From: an uncultured virus (IMG/VR IMGVR_UViG_3300031998_000073)
Lineage: Duplodnaviria > Heunggongvirae > Uroviricota > Caudoviricetes
Strand: one strand, 5' to 3'
Virus record (IMG/VR): IMGVR_UViG_3300031998_000073
DNA: 20,000 nt
Below, piece by piece: positions 3,020-20,000 of this stretch. The position numbers and the translations under genes are program-made. Position 1 is the first letter of the stretch. Every line of letters begins with the position of its first letter. The notes beneath the pieces are model-generated. The model was given only the letters and a program-made list of their open reading frames with translations. It was not told the DNA's origin and made no database searches.

Positions 3020-3025
3020 AGGCGG

Positions 3026-5125: not shown

Positions 5126-5157
5126 TCGCCAGCCGTACAAATCTGCGACAACGGAAA

Positions 5158-5197: not shown

Positions 5198-5216
5198 GGG
5201 CATAATTTTTCAGAAC

Positions 5217-5648: not shown

Positions 5649-5673
5649 TCAAAATTTAATAACTGAGATATAT

Positions 5674-6480
5674 ATGGCTACAACAGACACCAACGGAGGG
5701 CAGGAAGCCCAGCAGCAGCCGCAGAGCGCGCGAGACCGCTACCGCAGCCGCTACAGTGCAGCCCACCCAGACCTGAACCTCGACGATGACGAGGCTTTCT
5801 ACGACCAGGCCAACCGGAACCTTGACGAACTCGAGGACTTCCGCAAGACCAACAAGGAGCTTGGCGACGCCTTCGACAAGACCCCGCTTCTGGCCGGCAT
5901 CGTGCTTGCCGCGAGATCCGGCGAGAATCCCTTTACCTATCTTGCGGAGCAGATCGGCCCCGATGCCGACATCCGTGAGCTGGCCAGTAACCCCGAGTTC
6001 AGCAAGGCCATGGGCGACGCCCTGGCAAAGTTCCAGGAGCGTCAGGCCGCAGGCGCCAAGGCAGATAAGGAGGCCGGGGAGAACTTCCAGAAGAGCATGG
6101 ACGCCCTGGCAGAGCTTCAGCAGGAGAGGGGACTGAGTGACGAGGACCGCATCGGACTCATCAAGAAGCTCTTCGGCGTGATCGACCCTGAGACAAAGGA
6201 GGTCATCGAGCCGGGCATCATCGGCAACGCCTCCGTCGGCATCGTGCCCAAGGAGGTGTGGGAGGCCGTGCTGAAGGCACAGAACTACGACAGCGACATC
6301 GCATCGGCCACCGAGAAGGCGCGCGCCACTGCACTCAACGAGAAGATCCAGAACGGCAGGAAGGACTTCAAGGGCGCAGGCGTCCCCAGCCTCGGCAGCG
6401 GCAGCGCAGGCGCACGTACCGCTCCGAAGAAGAAGAACGACGGCAGTCTGAAGGCATTCCAGGAGAGCTTGGGCGTATGA
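5674..6480 (+). CDS. Putative capsid scaffolding protein
   Basis: Acidic, helical/coiled-coil protein with a low-complexity basic C-terminal tail, upstream of the capsid gene. ATG 5674 follows an AT-rich leader and is preferred over 5614, which overlaps the previous gene. Confidence 0.65.
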   Translation: MATTDTNGGQEAQQQPQSARDRYRSRYSAAHPDLNLDDDEAFYDQANRNLDELEDFRKTNKELGDAFDKTPLLAGIVLAARSGENPFTYLAEQIGPDADIRELASNPEFSKAMGDALAKFQERQAAGAKADKEAGENFQKSMDALAELQQERGLSDEDRIGLIKKLFGVIDPETKEVIEPGIIGNASVGIVPKEVWEAVLKAQNYDSDIASATEKARATALNEKIQNGRKDFKGAGVPSLGSGSAGARTAPKKKNDGSLKAFQESLGV

Positions 6481-6656
6481 TGAAGGACTGTCCCGTTATG
6501 GATCCCAGCCCGGGGCATCCAGACCCAGTGGATCCGGCAAAGAGCGACATGCTCCCATTCGGACGCAGAGCAGGACAGAACCTCAGCGGAACGCAGATGA
6601 GCGCAACGCAGCTGAAGCGCGGAGGACTCGTAAGAGCAAGACATATAAAGAAATGA
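6477..6656 (+). CDS. 59-aa mini-protein paralogous to the capsid protein N-arm
   Basis: MMKDCPVMDPSPGHPDPVDP...AGQNLSGTQMSATQLKRGGL...KK*. ATGA overlaps at both ends. 28/46 identities by hand to the MCP region 6803-6940. Confidence 0.75.
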   Translation: MMKDCPVMDPSPGHPDPVDPAKSDMLPFGRRAGQNLSGTQMSATQLKRGGLVRARHIKK

Positions 6657-8497
6657 ATAATAAACAACCCATTAAAACAACAGAGAGAATGAAAAAGATT
6701 CAGAATTTTGTGGAGAGACACGGACTGATCATCAGCCTGCTCTTCGTAGTGATGGCCGTCCTGACGGGCGGCACCGGCATCTGTCTGGCTGAGGGCGCAG
6801 CCGTGGTCGATCCAGACCCCGCCAATCCCGACCCCGTAGATCCGACAGTTAATGACATGGGCGACGCCACCGGTGAGGGCGCAGGACAGAACCTGCCAGG
6901 CACCCAGGGCAGCGCCACGCAGATCCGTCGCGGCGACCTCGACACCGAGGAGTACGACCCCGACATCGTAAAGTACAATGCACCCAAGTTCGTGCTGCTG
7001 AACTTCGCCCGTACCGTGGCCGTGCAGCGCAGCGTGAAGGGCTATGAGATCGACCACTTCCGTATCGGTGAGGCCAGCCTGACGCTCCGCACTACCGCAC
7101 AGATCAACGAGGCCGAGAGCATCAAGCTGAGCGCGTCGAACTGCAGCGGCAACCTGAACGACCTGGGCGTCAGCTCAACCGTCATCGTGAAGGGCGTGAA
7201 GGGCTACCAGAAGGGCAGCACCACCAAGACCAGCGGCGACCTTGTGCTGTATGTCAGCGCAGCCGACGAGGACGAGGTGACGCTCCGTCCGCTGAACGGT
7301 AAGGCCAAGGTGGAGGGAACCATGAGCGACTACATGCGCGACTACCTCGTGCCCGCCATCCCCGCCAACACAGAGCTGTACATCTCCAGCTATGCCGGCT
7401 CCGAGTCGCAGAAGATCGTTTCTCCCGACAACAGCCAGCCCCGTTCGACCCGCGTCTATCTGCAGAAGCGACTCTTTAATATCCTTATCACAGACCATGA
7501 GCGTGAGATCCTGAAGAAGACCCCGTGGGGATTCGACGAGATGCGCGACCAGGCACTGGCCAACTTCTCCAAGAAGTTCGAGCGCGACCTGTGGGACGGC
7601 GTGCAGACCCGCTACCTCATGCGCACGAAGGACGGCAACGAGGAGTATGTATATACCTCCGAGGGTATCCTCCGCCAGCTGACGAACACGCTGGGCATCG
7701 AGGGCAAGTTCAAGTACGCCCACATCACCGCCATCGGCAAGATCATGTTCACCAAGTATGCAGAGACCACCGAGGCATACCTGCTCTGCGGTAAGAACAA
7801 GGTGGCCGAGATCGCCAACATGGAGGAGATCATCAAGCACATGGACGCCAAGTACGACCACAAGAAGACCGACTACGGCATCGTGGTGCGCGACCTCGTT
7901 TCGAACTTCGGCACGCTGCATATCACCTACGCCCCGATGATGGACGAGATCGGCTATGAGGACTTCTGCGTCGCAGTGCCCCTCCAGATCGCCCGCTACT
8001 ACCACAAGGTGAAGAAGGAGTCAAACATCGACCTGAACAAGGCCGGCAACGACGCACGCGAGGCCATGCGCTATACCTATATCGAGATCGGCGCCCTGGC
8101 ACTCCGCGGTCAGAACTCCCTGCTTGTCGGTCCTTCCGACCAGATCATCGACAAGAACATCAGCGACGACACCGAGCCTATCGAGGTGGTGGACGCCATC
8201 CCCAGCAACCCGACGGACGGCATGATCATCTCCTTCGACGGCCTGCTGAGCGAGGACGGCGAGGTGACGAAGGTGAGCGCACTGCCTGCCGATCCCGCAG
8301 AGGGCGACATCATCGCGCCGACACAGGATATCGTCGTAGGTACCGATCCCGACACCGTGACCTACGAGGAAGGCAAGTACTACATCTATGAGAGCAATGC
8401 CTGGACCGAGTACGACGGCGTAGTCCTCGACGGCGACAAGGTATGGCAGTGGGACGAGGATTCCAGCCAGTGGGTGGAGTACACCGGAAACGTCTAA
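6653..8497 (+). CDS. Major capsid protein (probable HK97 fold) with hydrophobic N-terminal leader and C-terminal decoration-like domain
   Basis: 614 aa, after the scaffold, strongly C/G-ending codons. Motifs 'YLQKRLF', 'KKFERDLWDG', 'TSEGI', 'SNFGTLHI' fit E-loop/P-domain patterns. Alternative start at 6689. Confidence 0.75.
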   Translation: MNNKQPIKTTERMKKIQNFVERHGLIISLLFVVMAVLTGGTGICLAEGAAVVDPDPANPDPVDPTVNDMGDATGEGAGQNLPGTQGSATQIRRGDLDTEEYDPDIVKYNAPKFVLLNFARTVAVQRSVKGYEIDHFRIGEASLTLRTTAQINEAESIKLSASNCSGNLNDLGVSSTVIVKGVKGYQKGSTTKTSGDLVLYVSAADEDEVTLRPLNGKAKVEGTMSDYMRDYLVPAIPANTELYISSYAGSESQKIVSPDNSQPRSTRVYLQKRLFNILITDHEREILKKTPWGFDEMRDQALANFSKKFERDLWDGVQTRYLMRTKDGNEEYVYTSEGILRQLTNTLGIEGKFKYAHITAIGKIMFTKYAETTEAYLLCGKNKVAEIANMEEIIKHMDAKYDHKKTDYGIVVRDLVSNFGTLHITYAPMMDEIGYEDFCVAVPLQIARYYHKVKKESNIDLNKAGNDAREAMRYTYIEIGALALRGQNSLLVGPSDQIIDKNISDDTEPIEVVDAIPSNPTDGMIISFDGLLSEDGEVTKVSALPADPAEGDIIAPTQDIVVGTDPDTVTYEEGKYYIYESNAWTEYDGVVLDGDKVWQWDEDSSQWVEYTGNV

Positions 8498-8515
8498 ACG
8501 GACCTCCTTTCATTC

Positions 8516-8562
8516 GGGGTGGCTGCGTACCGGCTCCCGGCCATGCGGCCACCCCATATTTT
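8516..8562 (+). terminator. GC-rich hairpin after the capsid gene (terminator/attenuator or RNA-stabilising stem)
   Basis: GGGGTGGCTGCGT...ATGCGGCCACCCC (8516-8555), followed by ATATTTT. Confidence 0.6.
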
Positions 8563-8586
8563 CCCAAAAAGCAAAAGTAAGACATT

Positions 8587-9117
8587 ATGCTGAAGATTTA
8601 TCAACTAAGACTGAAGCAGAACACCTTCGAGGTCACGCTCCGATACAAGGGCGTAGGCGTGAGGGTGGCTTTCGTGGACGGCAATACCTACAACGGAGTG
8701 CCTGCCAAATGCTACACAAACGACCCGTTCAAGCAGCGTGCCATCGAGGCCAGCCAGATGTTCAAGGACAAGGAGATCGTGCTGGAGCGCACGGTTGAGG
8801 AGGAGGGTGACCGCAAGGCCGCTGCCGCCAAGTCCGCAAAGAAGGTGAGCATGGCAGCCAAGACGAAGCAGGCCGCAAAGCCTGCAACCGCAAAGCCTGT
8901 AACCGCGAAGTCGCCAGAGCCTCCGAAAGACCAGGAGCCTCCGAAGGATCCCGAGTCAGGGAATGCCGGTGACGGTACAGCCGCCATGACATTCGACAAC
9001 CTGGGCGAGGCCATCCAGTACATCGCCAAGGAATGGCAGATTCCCGTGCAGACCGAGAGGGAGGCCCGCCAGGTGCTGAAGGATCACGGCATTAACCCGA
9101 CCATCAAGAAGGGGTAA
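8587..9117 (+). CDS. Hypothetical protein (two small domains joined by an A/K/P-rich linker)
   Basis: 176 aa, AT-rich leader, codon style as in the capsid gene; AKPAT/EPPKD repeats in the linker. Confidence 0.7.
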   Translation: MLKIYQLRLKQNTFEVTLRYKGVGVRVAFVDGNTYNGVPAKCYTNDPFKQRAIEASQMFKDKEIVLERTVEEEGDRKAAAAKSAKKVSMAAKTKQAAKPATAKPVTAKSPEPPKDQEPPKDPESGNAGDGTAAMTFDNLGEAIQYIAKEWQIPVQTEREARQVLKDHGINPTIKKG

Positions 9118-9137
9118 AAGAGTGAAAAGGTGAAGAG

Positions 9138-9818
9138 ATGCTGGTATCGGAGATAGTGACACGGGTGAGGGCCGTCATCGACGAGCTGATGCAGAACGAC
9201 TCGGACTTCCTCCGCGAGAGCGAGGACGAGAAGAACCTGACGTCGTTGATCATCGACAAGATCGGCTACGCCCTGCAGCACGTCATCGAGAATGCGCCGC
9301 TCGACAAGCTCGACGACGACATGCTCGAGACGCTGACGGGGACGGAGCTGGCAAACAGCTTCTCCATCGACTCCACAAGCCTTGTCGCCACCCTGATACT
9401 TCCGACAGAACTTCTCCGCATCGTCGAGGCCCGGCTTTCGTCGTGGTCTCGTTTTCCTGTTCCTGAGCGTGACACGTCACAGGTGTACCTCATGCAGCAG
9501 GACCAGTACGCCCGAGGCTCATGGGACAGGCCCGTGAATATCCTGACCTACAACGCCAGCGGCAAGAAGATACTGGAGATGTACAGCGCCAAGACCAGTG
9601 CCGACACGCTTGTGTTCGTGTTTGTGAGCAAGCCCGACACCACTGACATCGACGCAGATCACATGTCAACGGACCTGGACGTGCCCTCACAGCTGGAGGC
9701 AGCGCTGATCTACCAGATTGCAGCCCTGACGATGACGGCCTTCAAGGATGACGTGGCCGGATCGCTCTTCGCCATCGCCTCAAAGTACCTGGATCCCGAC
9801 GCAGTGAACAATGAATAA
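9138..9818 (+). CDS. Putative head-tail adaptor / tail tubular-like protein
   Basis: 226 aa with helix-helix N-terminus (EIVTRVRAVIDE), beta middle (LPTELLRIV), 'VSKP' and 'LDVPSQLEAALIYQIA' C-terminal helices, an adaptor-like layout. Confidence 0.55.
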   Translation: MLVSEIVTRVRAVIDELMQNDSDFLRESEDEKNLTSLIIDKIGYALQHVIENAPLDKLDDDMLETLTGTELANSFSIDSTSLVATLILPTELLRIVEARLSSWSRFPVPERDTSQVYLMQQDQYARGSWDRPVNILTYNASGKKILEMYSAKTSADTLVFVFVSKPDTTDIDADHMSTDLDVPSQLEAALIYQIAALTMTAFKDDVAGSLFAIASKYLDPDAVNNE

Positions 9819-9835
9819 TACGCTAACGCACGAAA

Positions 9836-10105
9836 ATGATTACACCGGCATTCATATTCGACACCGAGGCCAACGGCTATATCAGCGACCCGTTCACCGT
9901 GTTTGAGCAGGCGAAGGTACACATCGAGCTTGCCAGCAGGGCGCCTGTGGTGACGCTGAAGGAGGAACCGGACGGCAGCTACGCCAACTACGGGCAAAGC
10001 CCGAAGGAGAGTGACCGCTACGAGATCAACCTCACCACCAAGGACGAGATAACGGTCCGTCTGGCCGCTCCCGTCGAGGTGACGAAATGTTACATCATCA
10101 ACTGA
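9836..10105 (+). CDS. Small beta-rich hypothetical virion protein
   Basis: 89 aa, in operon, consistent codon usage. Confidence 0.6.
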   Translation: MITPAFIFDTEANGYISDPFTVFEQAKVHIELASRAPVVTLKEEPDGSYANYGQSPKESDRYEINLTTKDEITVRLAAPVEVTKCYIIN

Positions 10106-10112
10106 CACCCGT

Positions 10113-11114
10113 ATGAAAATATTCGAATACGACGTACATATCGGCCAGCACCGCGTCCTGACAAATACGCATGACATCGCCGACAAGGCCGTCACCGGCA
10201 GGAAGCTGGCAGACCGTATCATCGACTGGTACCACATCATCAAGAAGGCCATCCGCAACGAGCATATCGCAGACAAAGCGATTAATACCAGAACCATAGA
10301 CGACAAGGCCGTCACGCCCAAGAAACTGTCTGACGATGTTGTTCCCGATGTGATCCAGCCGCTTTTGGACGAACTTGACGAGAGACACAAGACCATAACC
10401 GACGATCTGCAACATCAGATTACATCAATGGTTGCAGGCTCAAGTGTACCCATCAGCAATCAGTTTGGTGACAATACGCTTGTATGTGTTTCGCAGAAAG
10501 CCCTCACTGAGGCATTCAACAAGGTCTGGGGCAAACTGGAGGAGATTACTGGTGAGAGCCTGAAGGGATTCAACCTCATTGTCACTCCTGAGTATTACAT
10601 CGGAGAGGACGGCTGCACTGTTCATGTCTCTGCATCAAGTGCTGAGACGGCAGGAAGGTTTGAGTATATCCGCTTCCACATCAATAATATCCTCGTCACT
10701 GAGGCTGAGGACGTGGAAAGCTTGGAATATACCACTACGGTCAATGAGACCTCGGAAATCAAGTGTGTGGCAAAGATTCTCGGCATCGAATACACTGAGA
10801 CAAAGATGCTCACACACTACAGCTCATTCTTCCTCGGTGCTGCAACAAGCTACACCAACATCATGAATGTCAACCATATCATCTCCATCAATGATCACAT
10901 GAGGGGCAGCTACAATGTGCCGTGCAATGACGGAGACAGAATCTTCGTGGTTGTGGGCAAGAGTCTGAGGGAGGGCTTTGCGCGTGCTGACATGAACGGT
11001 GTTGAAATCCCGTTCACTGAGAGTGAGGTGACTGTTGACGGTAAGCAGTATGTGGTATTCACGTCACAAAACACCTACCAGAGAGGAACCTACAATATTG
11101 ACATTAACAGCTAA
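10113..11114 (+). CDS. Tail fibre-related protein
   Basis: 333 aa. IxDKAVT..K-type repeats (x3), coiled coil, 'FGDNTLVCVSQKALT' linker typical of fibre shafts, and a beta-rich C-terminus. Confidence 0.6.
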   Translation: MKIFEYDVHIGQHRVLTNTHDIADKAVTGRKLADRIIDWYHIIKKAIRNEHIADKAINTRTIDDKAVTPKKLSDDVVPDVIQPLLDELDERHKTITDDLQHQITSMVAGSSVPISNQFGDNTLVCVSQKALTEAFNKVWGKLEEITGESLKGFNLIVTPEYYIGEDGCTVHVSASSAETAGRFEYIRFHINNILVTEAEDVESLEYTTTVNETSEIKCVAKILGIEYTETKMLTHYSSFFLGAATSYTNIMNVNHIISINDHMRGSYNVPCNDGDRIFVVVGKSLREGFARADMNGVEIPFTESEVTVDGKQYVVFTSQNTYQRGTYNIDINS

Positions 11115-11119
11115 GAGAT

Positions 11120-11530
11120 ATGGAAAGTGTAAACGTATATGCAAGGGGCAGGCAGAAGCCTGTGGCCACCTACAACAATATCCTCCTTCCCCAGAACACA
11201 GTAGGGAAGAGGAACATCCTTGTGCAGGACATGATGACCACTGAGAATGCAAGGTACATCATCAAGTGGGACTTTGACCTTGACGGGCAGACAATCACTA
11301 TCCCTGACGGCTGTATGCTGTCTTTTGAAGGAGGCAGTTTCTTTAATGGTACTGTGAATGTCAACGGTGCTGACATCTTCCCCAACTACGACGCCCTTGC
11401 AGGGACTCAGAACATGACTGTTGAGGGCTATCCCAAGGCTGGTGTCGTGAGGTGGGACTATGAGAATCAGAAACCTGTCTGGAGTACAGGAGAGAAGTGG
11501 GTGAATGCCCTTGGTGGTGATAACGTATAA
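11120..11530 (+). CDS. Short tailspike-like protein (beta-helix N-cap plus C-terminal cap)
   Basis: 136 aa. 'YIIKWDFDLDGQTITIPDGCMLSFEGGSF' resembles the start of beta-helical spikes and 'KPVWSTGEKWVNALG' resembles spike C-termini. Confidence 0.5.
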   Translation: MESVNVYARGRQKPVATYNNILLPQNTVGKRNILVQDMMTTENARYIIKWDFDLDGQTITIPDGCMLSFEGGSFFNGTVNVNGADIFPNYDALAGTQNMTVEGYPKAGVVRWDYENQKPVWSTGEKWVNALGGDNV

Positions 11531-11542
11531 AGACTTGCAGAT

Positions 11543-14500
11543 ATGAACAACGAAGTAACTTACATTCCAAATAGAATTAAGAGCGCATCAAAGAATGACC
11601 CATTTGTAGCAGGTGCCGAGGATATAGATGCAGGGGGTAAGAGTCAGCAGGCTATCAATCAGGAGATGGTATCAGATGTAGAAACTCTTGACGGCAAAAT
11701 TACAGCAGAGAGACAACGGGCAGAAGGAGTGGAACTGAATCTTACAAGGGATATTTCAGACAGATACACTAAGGATCAGGTTTACAACAAAAGCGAGACT
11801 TACAGTCAGGAAGAGGTCAACAATATTGTATCAAGGACTCCCGAGACTGATGTGATTGTCATTGACATACCTGCTGCCTCGCAGAGTGACATTGCAGGCT
11901 GGCTTGATGCCAACACTCCAAGTGGCATTGACCCTGAGACGGGGAAAAGCGTAAGAGCCAACAAACTTTACCGTGTCCCTGGCCCAACAAATACTACATT
12001 CAGTGAGTGGGCCTGGAATGGTACTGCATATATCCCGCTTGCAAACAAGGATTATGGCATTGATGACGAGCCAACTCCTGATTGTGATAATATGTCTAAG
12101 AGTGGAGGTACATTTAAGTTTGTGAGCCGTCAGACATATAATTCGGAAGATGTAGGGAAGGCCATTGAGAGTATTAATAATGTACCGACTATTTATGACA
12201 AGGAAAATTGTCTTGTTACGCCTTTTATTGACGTGAGGGATACAAACGGTGTATTCTACTTCGGTGGAGCTTCTGGAAGTGATTTCGTACATTGCCATAT
12301 CTGCTGCTATAATCTTGCCAAGGAGTTTATTACCGATTATTGGTGGACAATGAGCCTTGGATATTACGTGAACTTTGAAAGAAACACGGAAGCTGGTGCA
12401 AGTGTAAGATATATCAGGGCAACCATGTATGTACCCAACATTCAGAACTGTAGCATAAGGGATGATGACGGTAAGGTCTTGTGGCAGGGTGATATCCATA
12501 AAGATGGAGTCACGTTAGATTATCTGTATGGAAATACGATAAGAGAGTTCAAATGTAACCCTGCCAATGGCAGATTATTGAGAGACGAAGATTGTTGCTG
12601 TACGCCATTCGTTAGTGTTGATGGTCTAAGTGGAATATGGTGGAACTCGAACTGTCATGAGTCAGAGGTTTCCCTTTGCTGTTATGATGCAAACAAGAGA
12701 TTTATTGCCGCCTCAAACTGGTCGTCAAATTATTTGCGCTGGATTGATTTTGGTGGTAGTGACGTCAGATACATTATTGCGTCCATGAAGAAAGACAAAA
12801 TTCAGGACTGCTTTATTAAAGATGCAAATGGAAACGTTCTTTGGTCTGTTGACGCAGGTGATGTTGGAAAAAAGAATTTCAAGGCATACTCTGTTATTCT
12901 TCAGTTTGGTTATGACTACTGGCTGAATGATGATACTTCGTTCACTGTCAGCATAAACCATGCCAATGCCAACAACTCCGTAGGATATGCTAACTGCGAG
13001 AAGGAAGTCGGAGAGGTATATCTTTATGGTGCTGATAGTGCATTGAAAGGCGATATGTATGAATATGTAATACCTAATTTCCACTTCCTTGTAGCAAGAC
13101 AGAAAGAAGGGCTGGACTATTTTGAGCTTACTGTTACCGACTACAACCATTTACAGAAGAATGACATATTACTTTGCTATGCTGCATATTCAAATTTGTA
13201 TGGAGTATTGGCTGAAACAAAAAGTAGAGTATCTTCCAGCTTATTGAATGTTATATATAATTCTGATAATATAAATTATTGTATTGAGGCAGCTGATTAT
13301 CCTGCTCGTATAAAAGAGAAAAAGGATTATCTTGTAACTCCGTTTATTGATGTAAGTGAACTAAGTGGCATTTGGTATGCTGCGGGAATACGATACATCT
13401 ATGCTCACCTCTGCTGCTATGACGCAGATAAAAACTGTATAGAGGACTACTGGTGGACAATGAATACCGGCTACTACATTAACTTCCAAAGGGAAACTGA
13501 AAAGGGTGCACGTGTGAAATATGTTAGAGCCACAATGTATATCCCGAACATAAGGGAATGCTGCCTGAAGACAAGTGAAAACGGAGAAGTCCTTTGGCAA
13601 AGCAATGTTGACAGCTATTTTGGAAGTACTTCACAGGCAGAAGACCTTCCTGTTTACTACAATGACTACCTTAAGGGTATCAGGGAGAAAGTCGAAGACA
13701 GGATCATCTCACTTGGGCATCGCAATGATTCCTTCTTCTTCTTTACCGATGTTCATACCATATTGGATGGCAGAAATAACAACTCTTTCAATTCCGGAAA
13801 GATCATCGGTAATCTGATGAAGACTACAAATATAAACAAGGCTGTGTTTGGAGGTGACATTGCTCCCGCTTTAGGCAGCAGGCAGAATATGATTGACACC
13901 ATGTCTGACTTCGCTGAACAATGGTACAGACATATAGCACCATACGGAAAACTCTACAGCGTAAAGGGTAACCATGACTTCCATATCACGGACAATGGTA
14001 CAAGAATCACCCTTCCGCAGGGCAGTGTAAGGAACTACTTCATGAACAGACAGAACATGGAGGCAGGATTACACTACGATGACAACAATCAGGAGTCCGT
14101 ATACTTCTACACCGACAATCGGGGTCAGAAGATAAGATACATCTTCGTTGACACGATGGATACCGTTGATTGGACTTTCAGCAAGCCCCAAAGCGATTTC
14201 TGCTACAATGCCATCGCTAATGCTCCATCTGGATATGGAATCGTTGTAATAGGCCATATTCCAGCCTGTGAGACAAATGCCCCAACTATCCAGACACTTG
14301 CCGATTTCCTTGGAGGATTCAGGAACAAGCAGAGTGTTACAATCAACGGTACTGTCTATGACTTTACCAGTGTGGAATCTGACCTGTTGTTCATGCTTGC
14401 AGGCCACGAGCATCGTGATGACTTTGTTGCCTATAAGAATGTGCCTTACTTCATTGTCGCGTGCGACACTCTTGTCAATGACTACAAAGTAGGTCAGTTT

Positions 14501-14899
14501 GGAGAGACTGATGACTTTCCCAATAAAGTAAGGGGCACAATATATGAAGTTACATTTGATGCGGTGTTTGTAGACATTCAGAATGAGACTGTTCAGTTTG
14601 TAAGAATTGGAGGAGGCTATGACAGGATATGCCACTTCAATACCAACAGGGTTAATGCGGGCAGTACAATCCAACTGCAAACGACAGTAGAAGACCCCGA
14701 ATGGCTTGATTGTGATGGCACTGGCAACTATTATGGTGGGTGGGATCCGAATACTGGCATGTATATCTATGAGAACAGCCATACAAAAGTGTCTGTCAAC
14801 AATGGTACGGTGACTGGTCTGGCTACTGGCAACGCCCTTGTGTGTGCAAGAAATCGCATTACTAAAGTAATGGAAATATTCGTAATTGAAGTTGTATAA
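11543..14899 (+). CDS. Large fibre/spike protein with three internal repeats, a calcineurin-like metallophosphoesterase domain and a C-terminal Ig-like domain
   Basis: 1118 aa. All five metallophosphoesterase motifs in order: TDVH, GGD, GNHD, GH, GHEH. Repeats 'TPF(I/V)xV...CCY...VRYI/VKYV...VLW'. C-terminus 'VSVNNGTVTGLATGNALV' is Big_2-like. Confidence 0.8.
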   Translation: MNNEVTYIPNRIKSASKNDPFVAGAEDIDAGGKSQQAINQEMVSDVETLDGKITAERQRAEGVELNLTRDISDRYTKDQVYNKSETYSQEEVNNIVSRTPETDVIVIDIPAASQSDIAGWLDANTPSGIDPETGKSVRANKLYRVPGPTNTTFSEWAWNGTAYIPLANKDYGIDDEPTPDCDNMSKSGGTFKFVSRQTYNSEDVGKAIESINNVPTIYDKENCLVTPFIDVRDTNGVFYFGGASGSDFVHCHICCYNLAKEFITDYWWTMSLGYYVNFERNTEAGASVRYIRATMYVPNIQNCSIRDDDGKVLWQGDIHKDGVTLDYLYGNTIREFKCNPANGRLLRDEDCCCTPFVSVDGLSGIWWNSNCHESEVSLCCYDANKRFIAASNWSSNYLRWIDFGGSDVRYIIASMKKDKIQDCFIKDANGNVLWSVDAGDVGKKNFKAYSVILQFGYDYWLNDDTSFTVSINHANANNSVGYANCEKEVGEVYLYGADSALKGDMYEYVIPNFHFLVARQKEGLDYFELTVTDYNHLQKNDILLCYAAYSNLYGVLAETKSRVSSSLLNVIYNSDNINYCIEAADYPARIKEKKDYLVTPFIDVSELSGIWYAAGIRYIYAHLCCYDADKNCIEDYWWTMNTGYYINFQRETEKGARVKYVRATMYIPNIRECCLKTSENGEVLWQSNVDSYFGSTSQAEDLPVYYNDYLKGIREKVEDRIISLGHRNDSFFFFTDVHTILDGRNNNSFNSGKIIGNLMKTTNINKAVFGGDIAPALGSRQNMIDTMSDFAEQWYRHIAPYGKLYSVKGNHDFHITDNGTRITLPQGSVRNYFMNRQNMEAGLHYDDNNQESVYFYTDNRGQKIRYIFVDTMDTVDWTFSKPQSDFCYNAIANAPSGYGIVVIGHIPACETNAPTIQTLADFLGGFRNKQSVTINGTVYDFTSVESDLLFMLAGHEHRDDFVAYKNVPYFIVACDTLVNDYKVGQFGETDDFPNKVRGTIYEVTFDAVFVDIQNETVQFVRIGGGYDRICHFNTNRVNAGSTIQLQTTVEDPEWLDCDGTGNYYGGWDPNTGMYIYENSHTKVSVNNGTVTGLATGNALVCARNRITKVMEIFVIEVV

Positions 14900-14904
14900 A
14901 ATAT

Positions 14905-16287
14905 ATGGCTACAAAGAGAATAGCGTGGACTACGGGAAGCGGTAACATTACCTTGACTTATACTGGCCAAGGTAATGGAACCATTACTGTGGAGTCTGAT
15001 GAAAATAATCTTGGAGCTGCCAGAAGTCAGATTGTGTCTATTCATACAACCGATAATGTTAAAACAAAAAACCTTACAGTTAACCAAGCTGCTTGTCCTT
15101 TTCCTGTAGGTGACACAAAAAATTATTCTTACACAGGTTCTTATCAAGAAGTAGAATTGCCAGCAGGTCAGTATAAGTTACAATGTTGGGGTGCTCAAGG
15201 TGGTAGTAATGGAGCTAATTCAACTTATGGAATTACTGCTCAAGCTGGCGGTAAAGGTGGTTATTCTGAGGGTATTATAACGCTTTCTCAAAAAACAACT
15301 GTAAGAGTCTACGTAGGAGGTCAGGGTTCATCATCCGCTGGTGGTTTCAATGGCGGTGGAAGCACAACAGGAACTTCCCAATATAATGCAAGCAATGATT
15401 TAGGCTATTCAAAGATGGGTGGCGGTGGTGGTGCCACTGATATAAGACTTAGTGATGGAGCATTGCTTTCACGCATGATTGTAGCTGGCGGTGGTGCTGG
15501 TGGTGCTATGGCTTACAGAAGTAATACTACAACTACCACTACAAGCGTGAGTTTTGCAAGTTCTAATCTCAAGTATGATGGTTATTATTTGGAAACAAAC
15601 GGAACGCCAACTGCGGCTAATAATTGGTGTATAACTAAACCTATATATTTAAAAGCAGGAGATACTATATCTGGAACAGCAAAAGGATATGGGCCTGTTA
15701 TATACTTAGCAAAAACAAATTCTTCTGGAAGTTCTTATACAGCAATATTAACTTCAAATTCAAGTAGTTCAACATGGCCGTTCACATATACTGCAACAAG
15801 TAATATGTACGTTGCTATTTCAACTGCTAAGTCAGGTTCTTCAGCAAGTGTCACAAGCACAACAACAACAACGTCAACAAACGCAGAAGTAGGTGGTGTT
15901 GGTGGTGGTTTAATGGGTGGCGGCTATTCTTTAACCTATGTTGGATATGTGAATGAAGCTGGTACAGGAGGTTCTTTTGGAATAGGTGCTAATCAGACTA
16001 CTACAAATTATCGCTTTGCTTCTGCTGGCGGTGGTGGTGGCTGGTATGGCGGAGGAGGAGGACAGAAGTCTAATGCTACTATTATTTATGTAAAATATAG
16101 TGGTGGTGGTTCTGGGTTTGTTAACATTGCTGCTAATGCACAATACAGACCTACTGGATATACAGGATTGCAGCTTGATAGCGGTGAGACAAAGGATGGT
16201 GCTACATCATTTCCAAATACTGCTGGTACAGGCAATGAAACAGGGCACTCTGGTAATGGATATGCAAGAATAACGAGGCTGGCATGA
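14905..16287 (+). CDS. Glycine-rich domain protein with N-terminal half-BACON domain (putative receptor-binding tip)
   Basis: 460 aa. 'LPAGQYKLQCWGAQGG', 'GGGGGATDIR', 'RMIVAGGGAGG', 'GGGGGWYGGGGG' and 'GNGYARIT' are hallmarks of the ALK/LTK-like Gly-rich domain. N-terminus GxGN...N...R...VNQ is BACON-like. Confidence 0.8.
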   Translation: MATKRIAWTTGSGNITLTYTGQGNGTITVESDENNLGAARSQIVSIHTTDNVKTKNLTVNQAACPFPVGDTKNYSYTGSYQEVELPAGQYKLQCWGAQGGSNGANSTYGITAQAGGKGGYSEGIITLSQKTTVRVYVGGQGSSSAGGFNGGGSTTGTSQYNASNDLGYSKMGGGGGATDIRLSDGALLSRMIVAGGGAGGAMAYRSNTTTTTTSVSFASSNLKYDGYYLETNGTPTAANNWCITKPIYLKAGDTISGTAKGYGPVIYLAKTNSSGSSYTAILTSNSSSSTWPFTYTATSNMYVAISTAKSGSSASVTSTTTTTSTNAEVGGVGGGLMGGGYSLTYVGYVNEAGTGGSFGIGANQTTTNYRFASAGGGGGWYGGGGGQKSNATIIYVKYSGGGSGFVNIAANAQYRPTGYTGLQLDSGETKDGATSFPNTAGTGNETGHSGNGYARITRLA

Positions 16288-16355
16288 GCAGGTTTCAGGC
16301 CTGCAAACCCAGACTTTCAAGGCACAATAATATTAACAAAAAAAATATATAGATT

Positions 16356-16964
16356 ATGGCATACGCAAGTTGGTTAACCCCGTCAAAGCAGTCAGGAAGC
16401 GGCAATGATACCGTGAACTTCTCTGCTGGTTCAAACAATACGGGAAGAAATTCAAGAAGCACCAATGTTACCTTCAAGGCCGTTGGTTGCAGTGATGTGG
16501 TGGTGGCTGCTACACAGGCTGGCAAGCCAGAGTTCGGGTCTTTCAACAGCTCTACGGCTGCTGCTGACAAACTTGGACAGACTCTTACGCTGAGTGGAAC
16601 AAGTAACTCCTCAGCACTTACTTTCTCGAAGGGTACGGACAATATTGGCCTGACACTTCCTGCAACTTATACTGCTGGAGGTATGACTATCAACAATGGT
16701 GCAGCCATCACTGGAGACCCCGGTGCCACACAGGAATATGCATGGAGTATTCAGCTCACCGTTCCTGCAAACACGGGAGTCAGTGCGCTTACCTGTCAGA
16801 TTGTAGTCACTGATGATGCAGGACACACGAACACTTGTACTATTACCTTGGCTGCTGGTGATGCAACTCTGAGTGTATCACCTCTCAGCGTTGACCTGCC
16901 TTGGGATGGTTCTACAAGTGCAAGCGTGACTGTCACGTCTAACACCAACTGGACTGTTGAGTAA
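16356..16964 (+). CDS. BACON/Ig-like fibre protein with circularly permuted (split) BACON
   Basis: 202 aa. Starts SWLTPSKQSGSGNDTV...NTGRNSR...TQAG and ends LSVSPLSVDL...VTVTSNTNWTVE*. Confidence 0.75.
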   Translation: MAYASWLTPSKQSGSGNDTVNFSAGSNNTGRNSRSTNVTFKAVGCSDVVVAATQAGKPEFGSFNSSTAAADKLGQTLTLSGTSNSSALTFSKGTDNIGLTLPATYTAGGMTINNGAAITGDPGATQEYAWSIQLTVPANTGVSALTCQIVVTDDAGHTNTCTITLAAGDATLSVSPLSVDLPWDGSTSASVTVTSNTNWTVE

Positions 16965-16966
16965 TT

Positions 16967-17338
16967 ATGAGTGAGGTAATCAACGTACCTAAGATGCTGG
17001 AGCCTACTGCCAGTGACGGAAAACTGGCAAAGGCTTCGTCCATCTTTGACCAAGATGAGGGGAAGTTCCAGAGTCAACTGAATGCCCTTATCATCAAGGG
17101 TGTCACCAAGCTTGTGCAGCTTACTGGCAATATCCTTGCAGATGAGGAGCCTGACGTGAACACCCAGACTGATGTCATCTACGTCAATGATGATGCGGAG
17201 CAGCACACCGTAGGAGTGAACAATGAAGTCTATAGGACTCCAGACGGGGAACTGATGGTCATCGTGGTTCCTTCTCATGGCTACGCTGAGATCAACTTCT
17301 TAAATATTGGAGGCACTATATTTGTCAGGGGACTATGA
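16967..17338 (+). CDS. Small fibre-associated protein
   Basis: 123 aa. N-terminus resembles that of 11543-14899; beta-rich C-terminus. Confidence 0.65.
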   Translation: MSEVINVPKMLEPTASDGKLAKASSIFDQDEGKFQSQLNALIIKGVTKLVQLTGNILADEEPDVNTQTDVIYVNDDAEQHTVGVNNEVYRTPDGELMVIVVPSHGYAEINFLNIGGTIFVRGL

Positions 17339-17481
17339 GAAGAAGGGTCATTGCAACAGGTGGTGAGACACCAGTACCGGCGGAGCCATATCTTGATGTG
17401 GTTCCCAAGATGCTCTGGATAACTGACACGGTTGGCAATGATGCCTTAGTGTTGAGCAATGTAGGTTGGATAGTGCAATAG
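17335..17481 (+). CDS. 48-aa protein: basic N-terminus plus N-terminal half-BACON (not in the ORF track)
   Basis: ATGA overlap with the previous stop. MRRRVIATGGETPVPAEPYLDVVPKMLWITDTVGNDALVLSNVGWIVQ* ends just before the terminator. Confidence 0.7.
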   Translation: MRRRVIATGGETPVPAEPYLDVVPKMLWITDTVGNDALVLSNVGWIVQ

Positions 17482-17523
17482 ACTGGCTATAATTCTTTTA
17501 AATTAATAATGTGAACTGAAATC

Positions 17524-17559
17524 AAGTCAGGCTGTCTGGGAAGATGGCCTGACTTTTTT
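17524..17559 (+). terminator. Rho-independent terminator closing the structural operon
   Basis: AAGTCAGGCTGTCT-GGGA-AGATGGCCTGACTT stem followed by a T tract. Confidence 0.9.
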
Positions 17560-17595
17560 GTCTATTCACGCGAACATTATTTATATACGCACGGG

Positions 17596-17635
17596 AATTA
17601 TATGAAACATTGTCAGGGTAAACGTCGTACCTTTG
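17596..17635 (+). promoter_or_regulatory. Third copy of AATTATATGAAA-N20-TACCTTTG promoter
   Basis: 12-mer at 17596-17607 and -7 element at 17628-17635; spacing identical to the two promoters at 5.1 kb. Confidence 0.75.
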
Positions 17636-17642
17636 CAGCGGA

Positions 17643-17792
17643 GTCGGGGAGATGAGGCTTCAGGAAAAGAAAAATCCCCGACCCAAAATAAGAAGCACCA
17701 CCAACTTATTTCATGCATGCCTCACAGACAGCAGGGCCGGGGACCGTTACCCGTTCGCTATCTGTGAGGCTATGGCTGATATATGGTGGTGC
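17643..17792 (-). ncRNA. Putative structured non-coding RNA (unassigned)
   Basis: Nested stems 17695-17703/17784-17792 and 17719-17732/17757-17770 (G-U pair on the minus strand, C-A mismatch on plus), plus 17643-17650/17675-17682. Begins just downstream of a minus-strand TAACTTTG. Confidence 0.5.
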
Positions 17793-17797
17793 GGGTG

Positions 17798-17805
17798 CAA
17801 AGTTA
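17798..17805 (-). promoter_or_regulatory. Bacteroidetes -7 element TAACTTTG (leftward)
   Basis: Exact TAnnTTTG followed by CA, immediately upstream of the structured region. Confidence 0.6.
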
Positions 17806-17839
17806 AGAAAAAGTTATTAATCAACCAAAATTTGCACCG

Positions 17840-18118
17840 ATGAAAGTGGTAGAATTGTTGAAAATTAGCAGTCCGACGTTAAAAATGCTCTCAGAAAATG
17901 AGGTATCACGGCATGACTGGCGCTATGTGCAGCTGTATGAGGAGTTTCTGCGTATGCGCAGCCTGGGGGTGAAGTATGCCGAAGCCGTAAGGATGCTTGC
18001 CAAGGAGTACGGGATCAGCCGTGCCACCGTGGAAAGGATCGTCTCACGGCTTGGAAGAGAACTGTCGGAAGATGTTAAAAGACCTCACAAGGAGAGGGAA
18101 GAAAGCGGCAACACCTGA
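17840..18118 (+). CDS. Small helix-turn-helix DNA-binding protein
   Basis: 92 aa; 'AVRMLAKEYGISRATVERIVSRL' is a classic HTH. Confidence 0.75.
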   Translation: MKVVELLKISSPTLKMLSENEVSRHDWRYVQLYEEFLRMRSLGVKYAEAVRMLAKEYGISRATVERIVSRLGRELSEDVKRPHKEREESGNT

Positions 18119-18121
18119 CCG

Positions 18122-18149
18122 TTTGCATGGCTGGTAATGCGTATATTTG
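18122..18149 (+). promoter_or_regulatory. Host-type Bacteroidetes promoter TTTG-N16-TATATTTG
   Basis: -33-like TTTG at 18122-18125 and -7 at 18142-18149, followed by a 5' hairpin GGTGTCG/CGGCACC (18151-18172) and an AT-rich leader. Confidence 0.65.
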
Positions 18150-18217
18150 CGGTGTCGATGCGCAACGGCACCAGAGAGTATTCGTATTTTATTATCAACT
18201 ATTAAAATCAAAGCAAC

Positions 18218-19198
18218 ATGACAGAAGATAAGATTATCACTTTAGGATCCCAGGACGGCGGCTTCGGTGGCCGCAGCGGATGGAGTCCGGCCGACTTCGC
18301 TGCCGTGATGGGCAACAACAAGGGCAACAGCGGAGGCATCTTCGGCGGCAACGGCATGTGGGACGGCGTCCTCGGCCTGTTCGGCCTCGGCATCGTGGCC
18401 AACATGTTCGGCTACGGCGGCGGCTTCGGCGGCTTCGGCGGTGGCGGCAACGACGCTGCTGCGACGGCCTACCTGGCCAACATGGCCAACAATAACCACG
18501 GCAACGACCTGCTGATGGAGCATATCACCGGCGTAGGCAACCGCGTAGTGGAGCTGGCACAGGCCTTCAACACCTCCACCGACGCCATCCAGGCCGGTCT
18601 TGCCAACATCAACCTCGCCATGGTTCAGCTGGCATCCCAGAACAACATGAGCGTGATGCAGCTGCAGATGGCCCTCCAGAAGGGTCAGAGCGACATCGCC
18701 CTGCAGTTCTGCAACTGCTGTAAGGACCAGGCACTGGCCATGTGTCAGCAGACCAACGCCCTGATCAACGCAGGCAACGAGAATACGCAGCGCATCGTGG
18801 ACAACCAGACCGAGGGCTACCGTGCCATCCTCCAGCAGATGTACAACGACAAGCTCGAGGACAAGAACGCTAAGATCCAGGAGCTGACCGCACTCGCGCT
18901 TGCCAAGGACGGTGAGATCTCGCAGATGAAGCAGAACCAGTACATCGCCGGCATCATCGGACAGAGCCAGGCACAGACGGACGCCCGCCTGAACGCCATC
19001 TATTCCGAGGTTGAGGCCATCAAGCGCTGCCAGCCGCCCACGATCACCCTGCCCAACAACCAGTACCAGGCCGTACCAACAGGCATCGCCACCATCGGCA
19101 GCGACTTCATCGGCACGCTGCTCGTGGCCCGTCTGCTTGGCTACACCAACGGCACTACCGGGACAGGCACGACAACCGAGACCCCGGCTGCAAAATAG
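18218..19198 (+). CDS. Hypothetical phage protein: Gly-rich hydrophobic N-terminus, Cys cluster, coiled coil
   Basis: 326 aa; hydrophobic segment GVLGLFGLGIVANMFG, 'QFCNCCK', Q/N-rich heptads, strong codon bias. Confidence 0.75.
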   Translation: MTEDKIITLGSQDGGFGGRSGWSPADFAAVMGNNKGNSGGIFGGNGMWDGVLGLFGLGIVANMFGYGGGFGGFGGGGNDAAATAYLANMANNNHGNDLLMEHITGVGNRVVELAQAFNTSTDAIQAGLANINLAMVQLASQNNMSVMQLQMALQKGQSDIALQFCNCCKDQALAMCQQTNALINAGNENTQRIVDNQTEGYRAILQQMYNDKLEDKNAKIQELTALALAKDGEISQMKQNQYIAGIIGQSQAQTDARLNAIYSEVEAIKRCQPPTITLPNNQYQAVPTGIATIGSDFIGTLLVARLLGYTNGTTGTGTTTETPAAK

Positions 19199-19280
19199 GA
19201 CCGGCTGGCGGTGGTACTGCCGCCGCCTGCTGGCCTTTCTGAGAGAGTTCATCAAAAAGGTAACAAAACAACAGGAGATT

Positions 19281-19808
19281 ATGTTTTCAAATTTAGCAAA
19301 AGGTGCCCATCTGACGATTCTCGACATGGGCGACCATGTGACGGTGACGGACGGAGTGGTGGAGAGCGTGAGCCAGCCGCGCCCCAGGGACGCACAGCCG
19401 AACCAGGTGCTGGCGTCAATCGCCTTCGGGCAGCAGCAGGAGATGGTGGTGGACATCATCGTGACCACGCCTACAGGACAGCGGACTTTCCGCAACGTGC
19501 CCGCGACGGGCGCCGTGGACCGCGGAGGCTCGACGATCATCACGGAGAGTCCGGAACTGATGGACACGGAGGTGGCGAACCTCGACAAGGCCAGTGCGGA
19601 GCATATCGCCAAGACCCCTTGGCATGAGAGCGCCCGCAAGGACTACGACGGGATCCGCAAGCAGCTTAACCGCAAGTATGCCCAGGACCAGGAGCGCGAC
19701 CAGACCATCGAGAACCTGAAGACCCAGTACGGGGAGCTGAAGGAGCAGACGGCACAGATACAGGCATCCCAGCAGGAGATACTGGAGCTGCTGAAGAAGA
19801 GACCGTGA
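19281..19808 (+). CDS. Hypothetical protein with C-terminal coiled coil
   Basis: True start is probably ATG 19281 (MFSNLAKGAHL...) after an A-rich leader. The ORF-track extension to 19011 overlaps the previous gene. Confidence 0.7.
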   Translation: MFSNLAKGAHLTILDMGDHVTVTDGVVESVSQPRPRDAQPNQVLASIAFGQQQEMVVDIIVTTPTGQRTFRNVPATGAVDRGGSTIITESPELMDTEVANLDKASAEHIAKTPWHESARKDYDGIRKQLNRKYAQDQERDQTIENLKTQYGELKEQTAQIQASQQEILELLKKRP

Positions 19809-19831
19809 TCTCCGCTAAAAACGCAAGAGAC

Positions 19832-20000
19832 ATGAGCGAGAACGTAATGATCATCAAGACACGCAAGCTCTCTGCCCGCGAGGTGAAGAAGAAGCTGCGC
19901 GACTTCATCGACGAGATCAGCGACGGATGCGGCCCCGAGATCGAGCAGATGGCCGACGAGCTGAAGGACTACGGCGACCAGTTCGTGGACGCCCTGAGCG
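19832..20000 (+). CDS. Hypothetical protein (3' partial)
   Basis: MSENVMIIKTRKLSAREVKKKLRDFIDEISDG..., open to the window end. Confidence 0.6.
   Translation, partial: MSENVMIIKTRKLSAREVKKKLRDFIDEISDGCGPEIEQMADELKDYGDQFVDALS

What the first reader, a model, noticed from the sequence alone, without database searches (positions are those of the whole stretch)
14905..17481. Split-BACON set: candidate phage fibre that polymerises by domain complementation (tip, shaft, base)
Known: a BACON domain reads roughly [L.vsP.sl.....t.tvtSN..W.v] + [sWl.....G.Gn..v....N....R.......V.Q]. Seen: the halves are distributed over three neighbouring genes. 16356-16964 begins with the C-half (SWLTPSKQSGSGNDTV...NTGRNSR...TQAG) and ends exactly at the end of the N-half (16866-16961, TLSVSP...VTSNTNWTVE*). 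14905-16287 begins with only a C-half (WTTG...GQGNGTITV...NNLGAARS...VNQA), followed by a Gly-rich adhesin-like domain. The unannotated 48-aa ORF 17335-17481 ends with only an N-half (YLDVVP...VLSNVGWIVQ*). Inference: the 48-aa protein nucleates, the 202-aa protein chains head-to-tail, and the Gly-rich protein caps the tip. This is logically like pilus donor-strand complementation and would give a variable-length fibre. The shaft gene also has its own long AT-rich leader, which would fit higher expression.
Basis: partly seen in the sequence, partly recalled or inferred. Interest (0 to 1): 0.8.

Follow-up and report, generated by a model that had tools for sequence, protein, structure and literature searches.

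The report
Split BACON domain joins phage fibre proteins
Three neighbouring genes of a gut-type phage each carry only half of a small Ig-like (BACON) fold at an end, a cut kept in many related phages, and a structure model with controls predicts that the halves clip together to chain a small anchor, a shaft and a glycine-rich adhesin tip into one appendage.

Summary
gp202 (16356-16964) starts with the second half of a BACON fold and ends, at its last residue, with the first half. gp460 (14905-16287) starts with a second half. The 48-aa ORF (17335-17481) ends with a first half. The cut lies in the same loop in 83 loci examined: 75 have another ORF ending in a first half, 81 another ORF starting with a second half, and 73 have both. 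Readthrough is unlikely: frames often differ, stops are mostly TAA, and this window's gene order is scrambled. Natural fusions carry a whole BACON across each junction. A three-chain model put gp48 on gp202's head and gp460's head on gp202's tail: ipSAE 0.78, best of 3 controls 0.00. That mark was reached by 116 of 157 solved complexes and 2 of 215 mismatched pairs. The model supports binding and does not show it. My best reading is a defined anchor-shaft-tip chain. This scan noted the same split four times before, on crAss-like phages. I found no paper describing it.

The parts
14905..16287 (+). gp460, the tip protein. It has a BACON second-half head (residues 1-63, nt 14905-15093) followed by a glycine-rich domain (residues 81-357, nt 15145-15975).
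   Evidence: ORF. PF12810 ALK_LTK_GRD matches at E 2.9e-33, 116.3 bits against a cut-off of 24.5. The head maps to whole-BACON profile positions 46-89, E 1.7e-6. Residues 2-65 touch gp202 169-202 in the complex model.
16288..16355 (+). 68-nt spacer before gp202, AT-rich in its last ~35 nt.
   Evidence: Sequence. The scan found no promoter-like site here.
16356..16523 (+). gp202 residues 1-56: the second half of a BACON fold at the N-terminus (the socket for gp48).
   Evidence: PF13004 matches residues 4-48 to profile 9-53 of 61. Whole-BACON profile positions 38-89, E 8.4e-14. Residues 2-55 touch gp48 18-48.
16524..16856 (+). gp202 residues 57-167: the middle Ig-like beta-sandwich (the shaft body).
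   Evidence: AF2 pLDDT is about 98 here. VIA-align gives 7ptb_A Z 9.2 (rmsd 2.4, 102 aligned) and 3zmr_B Z 8.8 (rmsd 2.4, 87 aligned) over model residues 59-168.
16857..16964 (+). gp202 residues 168-202 plus the stop codon: the first half of a BACON fold, ending at the last residue (the plug for gp460's head).
   Evidence: Whole-BACON profile positions 1-35, E 1.1e-8. Residues 169-202 touch gp460 2-65.
16967..17338 (+). gp123, of unknown function. Its stop overlaps the start of gp48 (ATGA). It may be the partner of gp48's N-terminal peptide.
   Evidence: ORF, with no Pfam or PHROG hit. Its C-terminal motif occurs in 5 of 83 loci, and in 4 of those 5 an MRRR-start small first-half gene follows directly. 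Its role is inferred only.
17335..17481 (+). gp48, the small anchor protein. It has a 16-residue N-terminal peptide followed by a BACON first half (residues 17-48, nt 17383-17478) ending at the last residue.
   Evidence: ORF. Family profile iE 3.4e-6. Whole-BACON profile positions 2-35, E 0.0054. P24, W28 and W45 are invariant in 63 aligned sequences. Residues 18-48 touch gp202.
17524..17565 (+). Terminator-like hairpin with a T run, closing the fibre gene block.
   Evidence: 14-pair stem followed by TTTTGTCTAT; it is the only such site in 14700-17900.

Best explanation
gp48, gp202 and gp460 are separately made parts of one virion appendage, joined without covalent bonds by rebuilding two BACON (Ig-like) sandwiches between chains.

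- The first three strands at the C-terminus of gp48 complete the four-strand half at the N-terminus of gp202.
- The first-half strands at the C-terminus of gp202 complete the half at the N-terminus of gp460.
- The result is a defined chain: small anchor, Ig-like shaft, glycine-rich adhesin tip.

Because the split heads and tails are constant while the bodies vary, tips and shafts can be exchanged between phages.

Shown: the halves, their exact placement at protein ends, their conservation, and whole domains at the same junctions in fused relatives.

Predicted by a model with controls: the two trans interfaces and the chain order.

Inferred: that the complex sits on the virion, that gp460 binds a receptor, and that gp48's N-terminal peptide anchors the chain, perhaps to gp123.
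For: (1) Half mapping with a whole-BACON profile and Pfam on gp202.

(2) Conservation.
- The gp202 family has 2771 proteins at E<=1e-3, and the 120 listed are all 192-206 aa.
- It spans 655 clusters at 50% identity.
- 224 of 287 fetched proteins have the order second half, middle domain, first half.

(3) In 83 loci (49 clusters at about 90% identity):
- 75 have another ORF ending in a first half, 81 another ORF starting with a second half, and 73 have both.
- In 63 loci both flank gp202 directly.

(4) Readthrough is unlikely.
- 35 of 68 upstream pairs and 61 of 72 downstream pairs are in different frames.
- Stops are mostly TAA with AT-rich spacers.
- In this window, L010 and L014 the three genes are not even in colinear order.

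(5) Natural fusions carry a whole BACON across each junction.
- gp202 plus tip head: P0161 168-258 and P0201.
- Upstream protein plus gp202: P0280 609-692 and P0128 996-1071.
- gp202 plus gp202: P0121 171-259 and five others.

(6) In the AF2 model of the fused P0201, residues 173-261 match the solved BACON of 3zmr_B 42-129 at Z 10.8, rmsd 1.9 A, 84 aligned. This is the top hit.

(7) Three-chain model with gp202 as the scored partner.
- ipSAE was 0.78, 0.78 and 0.79; the best of 3 controls was 0.00.
- The mark was reached by 116 of 157 solved complexes and 2 of 215 mismatched pairs.
- The runs agree in at least 96% of contacts, and the partner's pLDDT is at least 94.
- Contacts are gp48 18-48 with gp202 2-55, and gp460 2-65 with gp202 169-202.
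- This is the chain arrangement, not a closed gp202 beside a gp48-gp460 pair.
Against: - No experiment exists, and the model's verdict says it supports binding but does not show it.
- The job differs from its calibration: three chains and my own alignments.
- The BACON fold is solved, so part of the pass may be memory of the fold.
- In the control with gp460's head replaced, gp202 no longer touched gp48 (0.00, 4 contacts). The gp48-gp202 joint is therefore not supported on its own.
- AF2 folds gp202 alone with pLDDT 97.3 and confident termini. This fits a self-closed monomer, though I could not see coordinates.
- Pfam sees no BACON in gp48 or gp460, and gp48's match to the whole-domain profile is weak (E 0.0054).
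- 8 of 83 loci show no first-half partner, and 2 of 83 show no second-half partner, within the DNA held.
- How gp48 is fixed to the virion is unknown.
Confidence: 0.68

Rival explanations
1. Closed shaft. gp202 folds back on itself so that its own tail and head form a circularly permuted BACON. The two leftover halves, gp48's tail and gp460's head, pair with each other, so gp202 is a free two-domain protein.
For: The AF2 monomer of gp202 has pLDDT 90 or more for 200 of 202 residues, termini included, and pTM 0.84. With gp460's head replaced by an unrelated protein, gp202 made no confident contact with gp48 (control 3), as a self-closed protein would behave.
Against: With all three chains present and both arrangements possible, all 3 runs chose the chain. 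Fused relatives join gp202's tail to a tip-type head, and an upstream protein's first half to gp202's head. I saw no fusion of an anchor tail to a tip head among the 287 proteins classified. In the fused P0201 model the contiguous domain forms even though gp202's own head is present. This reading also needs gp202 to have been inserted exactly at the same loop of another split domain.
Confidence: 0.12
2. gp202 polymerises head-to-tail in trans into a shaft of variable length, nucleated by gp48 and capped by gp460.
For: A gp202 tail and a gp202 head form a whole BACON in cis in tandem fusions: P0121-P0124, P0144, P0192, P0240, P0241, with the complete profile covered at E down to 1.8e-18. So the pairing is sterically possible.
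Against: It was not tested in trans, because my one complex job went to the three-protein chain. Two-unit shafts exist as fused genes, which would be needless if units polymerised freely. The gp202-tail and small-anchor-tail classes are diverged, and so are the gp202-head and tip-head classes; cross-profile hits are weak, with E 0.007 to 10. This fits two specific junctions. Each of the 83 loci has one frame carrying the gp202 middle domain.
Confidence: 0.1
3. No trans assembly. The half-domains are recombination scars or decaying gene fragments, or the genes are joined during translation by stop readthrough, frameshift or an altered code.
For: 33 of 68 anchor-to-gp202 pairs are in the same frame, more than the one third expected by chance. 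BACON-coding DNA could serve as a recombination site for swapping fibre modules.
Against: The cut is kept at the same loop across 655 clusters at 50% identity, with protein length fixed near 202 aa. 35 of 68 upstream and 61 of 72 downstream pairs are out of frame. The stops are mostly TAA, some followed by further in-frame stops. In this window the partners lie 2 kb upstream and 0.4 kb downstream of gp202, in the wrong order for any read-through product.
Confidence: 0.04

Closest known systems
BACON domain (Pfam PF13004; solved in Bacteroides ovatus GH5 xyloglucanase, PDB 3ZMR) and BACON tandem repeats of crAss-like phages (PMC6949934, passages read)
   Same: It is the same fold and sequence family. 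My head and tail profiles alternate with 2-4 residue gaps along long Bacteroidota surface proteins. The fused relative's junction matches 3zmr_B at Z 10.8, rmsd 1.9 A, 84 aligned.
   Different: In known cases one chain holds the whole 88-residue sandwich. Here no chain in the window holds a whole one: each has only positions 1-35 or about 38-89. A term search of the 2019 BACON-repeat paper found no mention of 'split'.
Donor-strand complementation and exchange in chaperone-usher pili and Bacteroidota type V pili (general knowledge, recalled)
   Same: An incomplete Ig-like fold in one subunit is completed by strands from the next subunit, giving a non-covalent chain of subunits.
   Different: In pili one strand is donated, the subunits are mostly alike, and a chaperone, usher or protease drives assembly. 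Here about three strands of a seven-strand fold are donated and the three partners differ. Pfam and PHROGs named no such helper among the window proteins I scanned.
Chain-like fibres of podophages GP4, VP1 and A1002, where fibre dimers dock on a 'rope' protein by beta-sheet augmentation (PMC13730344, passages read)
   Same: Phage fibre parts encoded by separate genes are joined through shared beta-sheets.
   Different: There, complete domains gain an extra strand from a long rope. Here a single small domain is cut in two, and each half sits at a protein terminus.
3D domain swapping and circular permutation of Ig-like domains (general knowledge, recalled)
   Same: gp202's head and tail could close on each other, swap with a second copy, or run on as a polymer. 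These are the three classic outcomes of domain swapping.
   Different: Here extra genes encode lone halves (gp48, gp460's head) that must be satisfied by another chain, and the model prefers the hetero-chain.

Membership tests
BACON domain (PF13004) | Sequence match to the Pfam profile above its gathering score | tested here: met
   gp202 scores 34.1 bits against a cut-off of 25, E 2.7e-8, but only residues 4-48 on profile positions 9-53 of 61. gp460 and gp48 have no PF13004 or PF19190 hit at E<=1. They match only my whole-BACON profile: gp460 at E 1.7e-6 and gp48 at E 0.0054.
BACON domain (PF13004) | A whole sandwich of about 88 residues within one polypeptide | tested here: not met
   On the 89-position profile, gp202 covers 38-89 at its start and 1-35 at its end, gp460 covers 46-89, and gp48 covers 2-35. 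No window protein covers both halves contiguously.
BACON domain (PF13004) | Three-dimensional likeness to a solved BACON domain | tested here: inconclusive
   This is met for the natural fusion P0201: model 173-261 against 3zmr_B 42-129, Z 10.8, rmsd 1.9 A, 84 aligned. For the window's own trans assembly I have only the contact list and scores, not coordinates to compare.
Donor-strand complementation pili (chaperone-usher, type V) | One strand of the neighbouring subunit completes the fold | tested here: not met
   The donated part is a 32-35 residue first half (profile positions 1-35 of 89), not a single strand.
Donor-strand complementation pili (chaperone-usher, type V) | A dedicated chaperone, usher or processing protease encoded nearby | tested here: inconclusive
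   The 9 window proteins scanned with Pfam and the 18 scanned with PHROGs gave no such family. Absence of hits does not exclude a helper.
Donor-strand complementation pili (chaperone-usher, type V) | Homopolymer of like subunits | not tested
   No gp202-gp202 complex job was run. Only cis fusions of two units were seen.
ALK/LTK glycine-rich domain (PF12810), for gp460's body | Sequence match above the gathering score | tested here: met
   116.3 bits against a cut-off of 24.5, E 2.9e-33, residues 81-357 on profile 1-196 of 243. The adhesin role is inferred, not tested.

The most novel reading that the evidence does not exclude
Gut phages of several lineages use a deliberately split Ig-like domain as a universal plug and socket. 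Any protein ending in the first half can be clipped to any protein starting with the second half, so anchors, shafts of one, two or more units, and tips are reshuffled by simple gene exchange. Free gp202 may self-cap by closing on itself until both partners arrive, which would be a built-in assembly checkpoint. If gp202 can also pair with itself in trans, the same parts would give fibres of variable length, a pilus-like polymer on a virus.
Probability: 0.3. Interest if true: 0.85.

Novelty: new variant of a known kind. Interest (0 to 1): 0.74.

Why it matters
The assembly of phage fibres and the swapping of receptor-binding parts decide host range. A small domain cut in two and shared between proteins would be a new, compact joining principle for virions. 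It is related to pilus strand complementation but uses half a domain and unlike partners.

The family is very common in metagenomic data: 2771 clusters at 90% identity for the shaft alone. BACON-bearing proteins of gut phages have been reported to promote epithelial adherence when displayed on another phage (PMC13370021, passages read). The split halves could also serve as natural protein-ligation tags for phage engineering.

For annotation, it explains why many short 'hypothetical' ORFs next to fibre genes are real.

Tried and rejected
- **DNA search.** blastn of 14905-17481 against GenBank phages found nothing.
- **Own genome.** The window's assembly is not held, so I could not search it.
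- **Distant loci search.** A diverse 99-row alignment was too variable for the search for related loci. A closer 28-row alignment worked.
- **Alignment for the fusion fold.** Aligning the fused P0201 with both gp202 homologues and tip heads failed, because MAFFT laid the tip heads onto gp202's own head. The P0201 fold therefore used only gp202-family rows plus P0161, which leaves its tip-head part shallow (pLDDT 64-74).
- **Closure of gp202 alone.** I could not inspect coordinates of the gp202 monomer model, so 'self-closed' is inferred from pLDDT only.
- **Frameshift fusion of gp123 and gp48.** I read the sequence for a -1 frameshift fusing gp123 to gp48 and saw no slippery heptamer. In L014 and L067 the two genes are 12 nt apart.
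- **Altered genetic code.** I considered stop-codon reassignment of the kind recalled for some crAss-like phages. The stops at the junctions are mostly TAA, and about half the pairs are out of frame.
- **GenBank 'lipocalin-like' label.** The label on the cr127_1 homologue is not borne out. The middle domain models as an Ig-like sandwich.
- **Literature.** Four searches and term look-ups in four papers found no description of a split BACON domain.
- **Unread supplements.** The sequence tables of PMC13370021 sit in a zip too large to read. I could not check whether its tested adhesins belong to these families.
Full report
**What is in the window**

The window is phage DNA. A portal gene lies at 3026-5065 on the minus strand (phrog_156, E 1.4e-45). 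A tail-fibre-like gene lies at 10113-11114 (phrog_892). Downstream of it, plus-strand ORFs run to a terminator-like hairpin at 17524-17555. This fibre block (about 10.1-17.5 kb) has 36-51% G+C, while the flanks have 51-62%, mostly 54% or more.

The three ORFs of the finding exist as stated:
- gp460 at 14905-16287
- gp202 at 16356-16964
- a 48-codon ORF at 17335-17481, which overlaps the stop of gp123 (16967-17338) in an ATGA

**Are the halves real?**

Pfam sees BACON only in gp202: residues 4-48 on profile positions 9-53 of 61, E 2.7e-8. It sees nothing in gp460's head or in gp48 at E<=1, and PF19190 gives nothing.

I therefore cut 37 whole BACON units out of 10 long cellular surface proteins. 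These had been returned as distant relatives of gp202. In them, profiles of gp202's tail and head alternate with 2-4 residue gaps. From these units I built an 89-position profile. It maps the window proteins as follows (E-values are for 7 sequences):
- gp202 4-56 on positions 38-89 (E 8.4e-14)
- gp202 168-202 on positions 1-35 (E 1.1e-8)
- gp460 19-63 on positions 46-89 (E 1.7e-6)
- gp48 17-48 on positions 2-35 (E 0.0054)

Both first halves end at the last residue of their protein. gp48 alone is weak. It scores iE 3.4e-6 against a profile of 40 distinct small proteins from other loci, and neither it nor its 98% identical L010 copy appears among the rows those seeds were drawn from. By plain sequence, gp202's head also aligns to the BACON-bearing enzyme 3ZMR, weakly (E 0.36).

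**Conservation**

- The gp202 family holds 2771 proteins at E<=1e-3, and the 120 listed are all 192-206 aa.
- It spans 655 clusters at 50% identity.
- Of 287 proteins fetched, 224 have the order second half, middle domain, first half.
- tblastn also finds the family in crAss-like phages cr127_1 and cr111_1 and in other gut phages.

I examined 83 loci: the window, two GenBank phages, and 80 IMG/VR contigs out of 313 matching stretches. They fall into 49 clusters at about 90% identity of gp202. The counts are:
- 75 hold another ORF that ends in a first half. All 75 such hits end 0-2 residues before the stop.
- 81 hold another ORF that starts with a second half.
- 73 hold both.
- In 63 both flank gp202 directly, in the order anchor, gp202, tip-head protein.
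- 8 loci lack the first-half partner and 2 lack the second-half partner in the DNA held.

The tip-head proteins range from 77 to 726 aa; 67 of 81 are 130 aa or shorter. The constant part is therefore the head, and the bodies vary.

**Not a translation artefact**

- 35 of 68 upstream pairs and 61 of 72 downstream pairs are in different frames.
- The upstream in-frame share (33 of 68) exceeds one third. However, the stops are mostly TAA, followed by AT-rich spacers of 3-72 nt, and some spacers hold further in-frame stops.
- In this window, and in L010 and L014, the order is scrambled: the tip comes first, then gp202, then gp123, then the anchor. No read-through product could join the halves.

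**Fused relatives**

Natural proteins exist in which each junction is continuous, and the whole-BACON profile covers it:
- gp202 tail plus tip head: P0161 168-258, profile 3-88; P0201 172-235.
- Upstream protein plus gp202 head: P0280 609-692, profile 2-87, E 2.3e-17; P0128 996-1071.
- gp202 plus gp202: P0121 171-259, E 1.8e-18, and five others.

These fused proteins still begin with a lone second half or end with a lone first half.

**Folds**

AF2 on gp202 with 99 aligned sequences gives pLDDT 97.3 and pTM 0.84, with the termini included. The middle domain (59-168) is an Ig-like sandwich: 7ptb_A Z 9.2 (rmsd 2.4, 102 aligned) and 3zmr_B Z 8.8 (rmsd 2.4, 87 aligned). Confident termini suggest that the lone chain closes on itself, but I could not see coordinates.

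AF2 on the natural fusion P0201 gives mean pLDDT 86.4, and 64-74 over the shallowly aligned tip head. Its best structural match overall is the solved BACON of 3zmr_B 42-129 on model residues 173-261, at Z 10.8, rmsd 1.9 A, 84 aligned. So gp202's tail plus a tip-type head form a canonical BACON in cis, even with gp202's own head present as a competitor.

**Complex**

I gave the one complex job to the open question of chain versus closed shaft. The chains were gp48, gp460 residues 1-70, and full-length gp202 as the scored partner, each with an alignment.

Result:
- The verdict is that the model supports binding and does not show it.
- ipSAE was 0.78, 0.78 and 0.79. The best of 3 controls was 0.00.
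- The mark was reached by 116 of 157 solved complexes and 2 of 215 mismatched pairs.
- The runs agree in at least 96% of contacts, and the partner's pLDDT is at least 94.
- The counts hold only roughly here, because my own alignments were used and the job had three chains, unlike the calibration.

Contacts were gp48 18-48 with gp202 2-55, and gp460 2-65 with gp202 169-202. This is the chain, not a closed gp202 beside a gp48-gp460 pair.

Results against my reading:
- When gp460's head was replaced by an unrelated protein, gp202 no longer touched gp48 (0.00, 4 contacts). The anchor joint is not supported on its own, and the model may then close gp202.
- The BACON fold is solved, so part of the score may be memory of the fold. 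The choice between the two arrangements is less likely to be.

**Reading**

The most likely reading is a defined anchor-shaft-tip chain held by two rebuilt BACON sandwiches. The tip's body is a glycine-rich PF12810 domain (E 2.9e-33), and its adhesin role is inferred. gp48's first 16 residues are free in the model. A gp123-type C-terminal motif occurs in 5 of 83 loci, and in 4 of those 5 an MRRR-start anchor gene follows directly. Docking of the anchor on gp123 is a guess.

It was not tested in trans. Fused two-unit genes argue that length is written in the gene.

The 'leader means higher expression' argument has no support.

**Prior knowledge**

This scan noted the same split four times before on crAss-like phages, each time saying that binding was not shown. 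I saw those notes after forming my reading, and they steered my complex job toward that gap.

Four literature searches and term look-ups in four papers found no description of it:
- The crAss001 atlas leaves the fibres unresolved and does not mention BACON.
- The 2019 BACON-repeat paper never uses 'split'.
- The 2026 gut-phage adhesin paper treats BACON proteins as whole modular adhesins. Its sequence tables could not be read.
- The nearest phage precedent I found is beta-sheet augmentation of fibre dimers on a rope protein in A1002, GP4 and VP1.

Noticed in passing
window 10100-17500 against 1-10000 and 18000-20000: The fibre block has 36-51% G+C while the flanks have 51-62%, mostly 54% or more. 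The whole receptor-binding cassette looks imported from a lower-GC phage or host background.
   Followed up: no
L068 6687-6980, L070 4682-4978, L072 13761-14066, L076 6678-6974, L080 2452-2754: In many related loci the small first-half proteins have N-terminal parts made of 3-6 copies of a 9-11 residue unit of the type 'S..R(I/V)GG(I/M)'. The copy number varies. This may be a repetitive anchor or stalk.
   Followed up: no
window 16967-17338 and 17335-17481; L010, L014, L067: A gp123-type C-terminal motif ('..NIGGTIF(A/V)RG.') occurs in 5 of 83 loci. In 4 of those 5, a gene starting MRRR and ending in a BACON first half follows it directly. In L004 (same contig as L011) a 355-aa protein also starts MRRR. 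This may be a second docking peptide.
   Followed up: partly
window 11543-14899: The 1118-aa fibre-block protein carries a calcineurin-like phosphoesterase domain (PF00149, residues 731-958, E 5.5e-5, 24.1 bits against a cut-off of 21.5). That is an enzyme domain in a tail-fibre-type protein.
   Followed up: no
window 18218-19198; also L004 6868-7803, L007 2693-3655, L009 6863-7819: A 311-326 aa protein with a glycine-rich N-terminus (phrog_16490, E 9e-29) lies downstream of the fibre block, both here and in related contigs with quite different fibre genes.
   Followed up: no
window 542-1099, 2007-2537, 2549-3019 (minus strand): Three paralogous proteins beside the portal gene all match phrog_19255, of unknown function.
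   Followed up: no
L001 3001-3636 (cr127_1, QOR59799.1): The GenBank homologue of gp202 is labelled 'lipocalin-like protein'. The modelled middle domain is an Ig-like sandwich, not a lipocalin barrel.
   Followed up: partly
protein P0128, residues about 996-1085: In this 1195-aa fused relative, the junction still reads like a gene start: Met-Ala and then the conserved Trp-Leu head motif, in frame right after the first half. It looks like a recent fusion of two genes by loss of a stop.
   Followed up: partly
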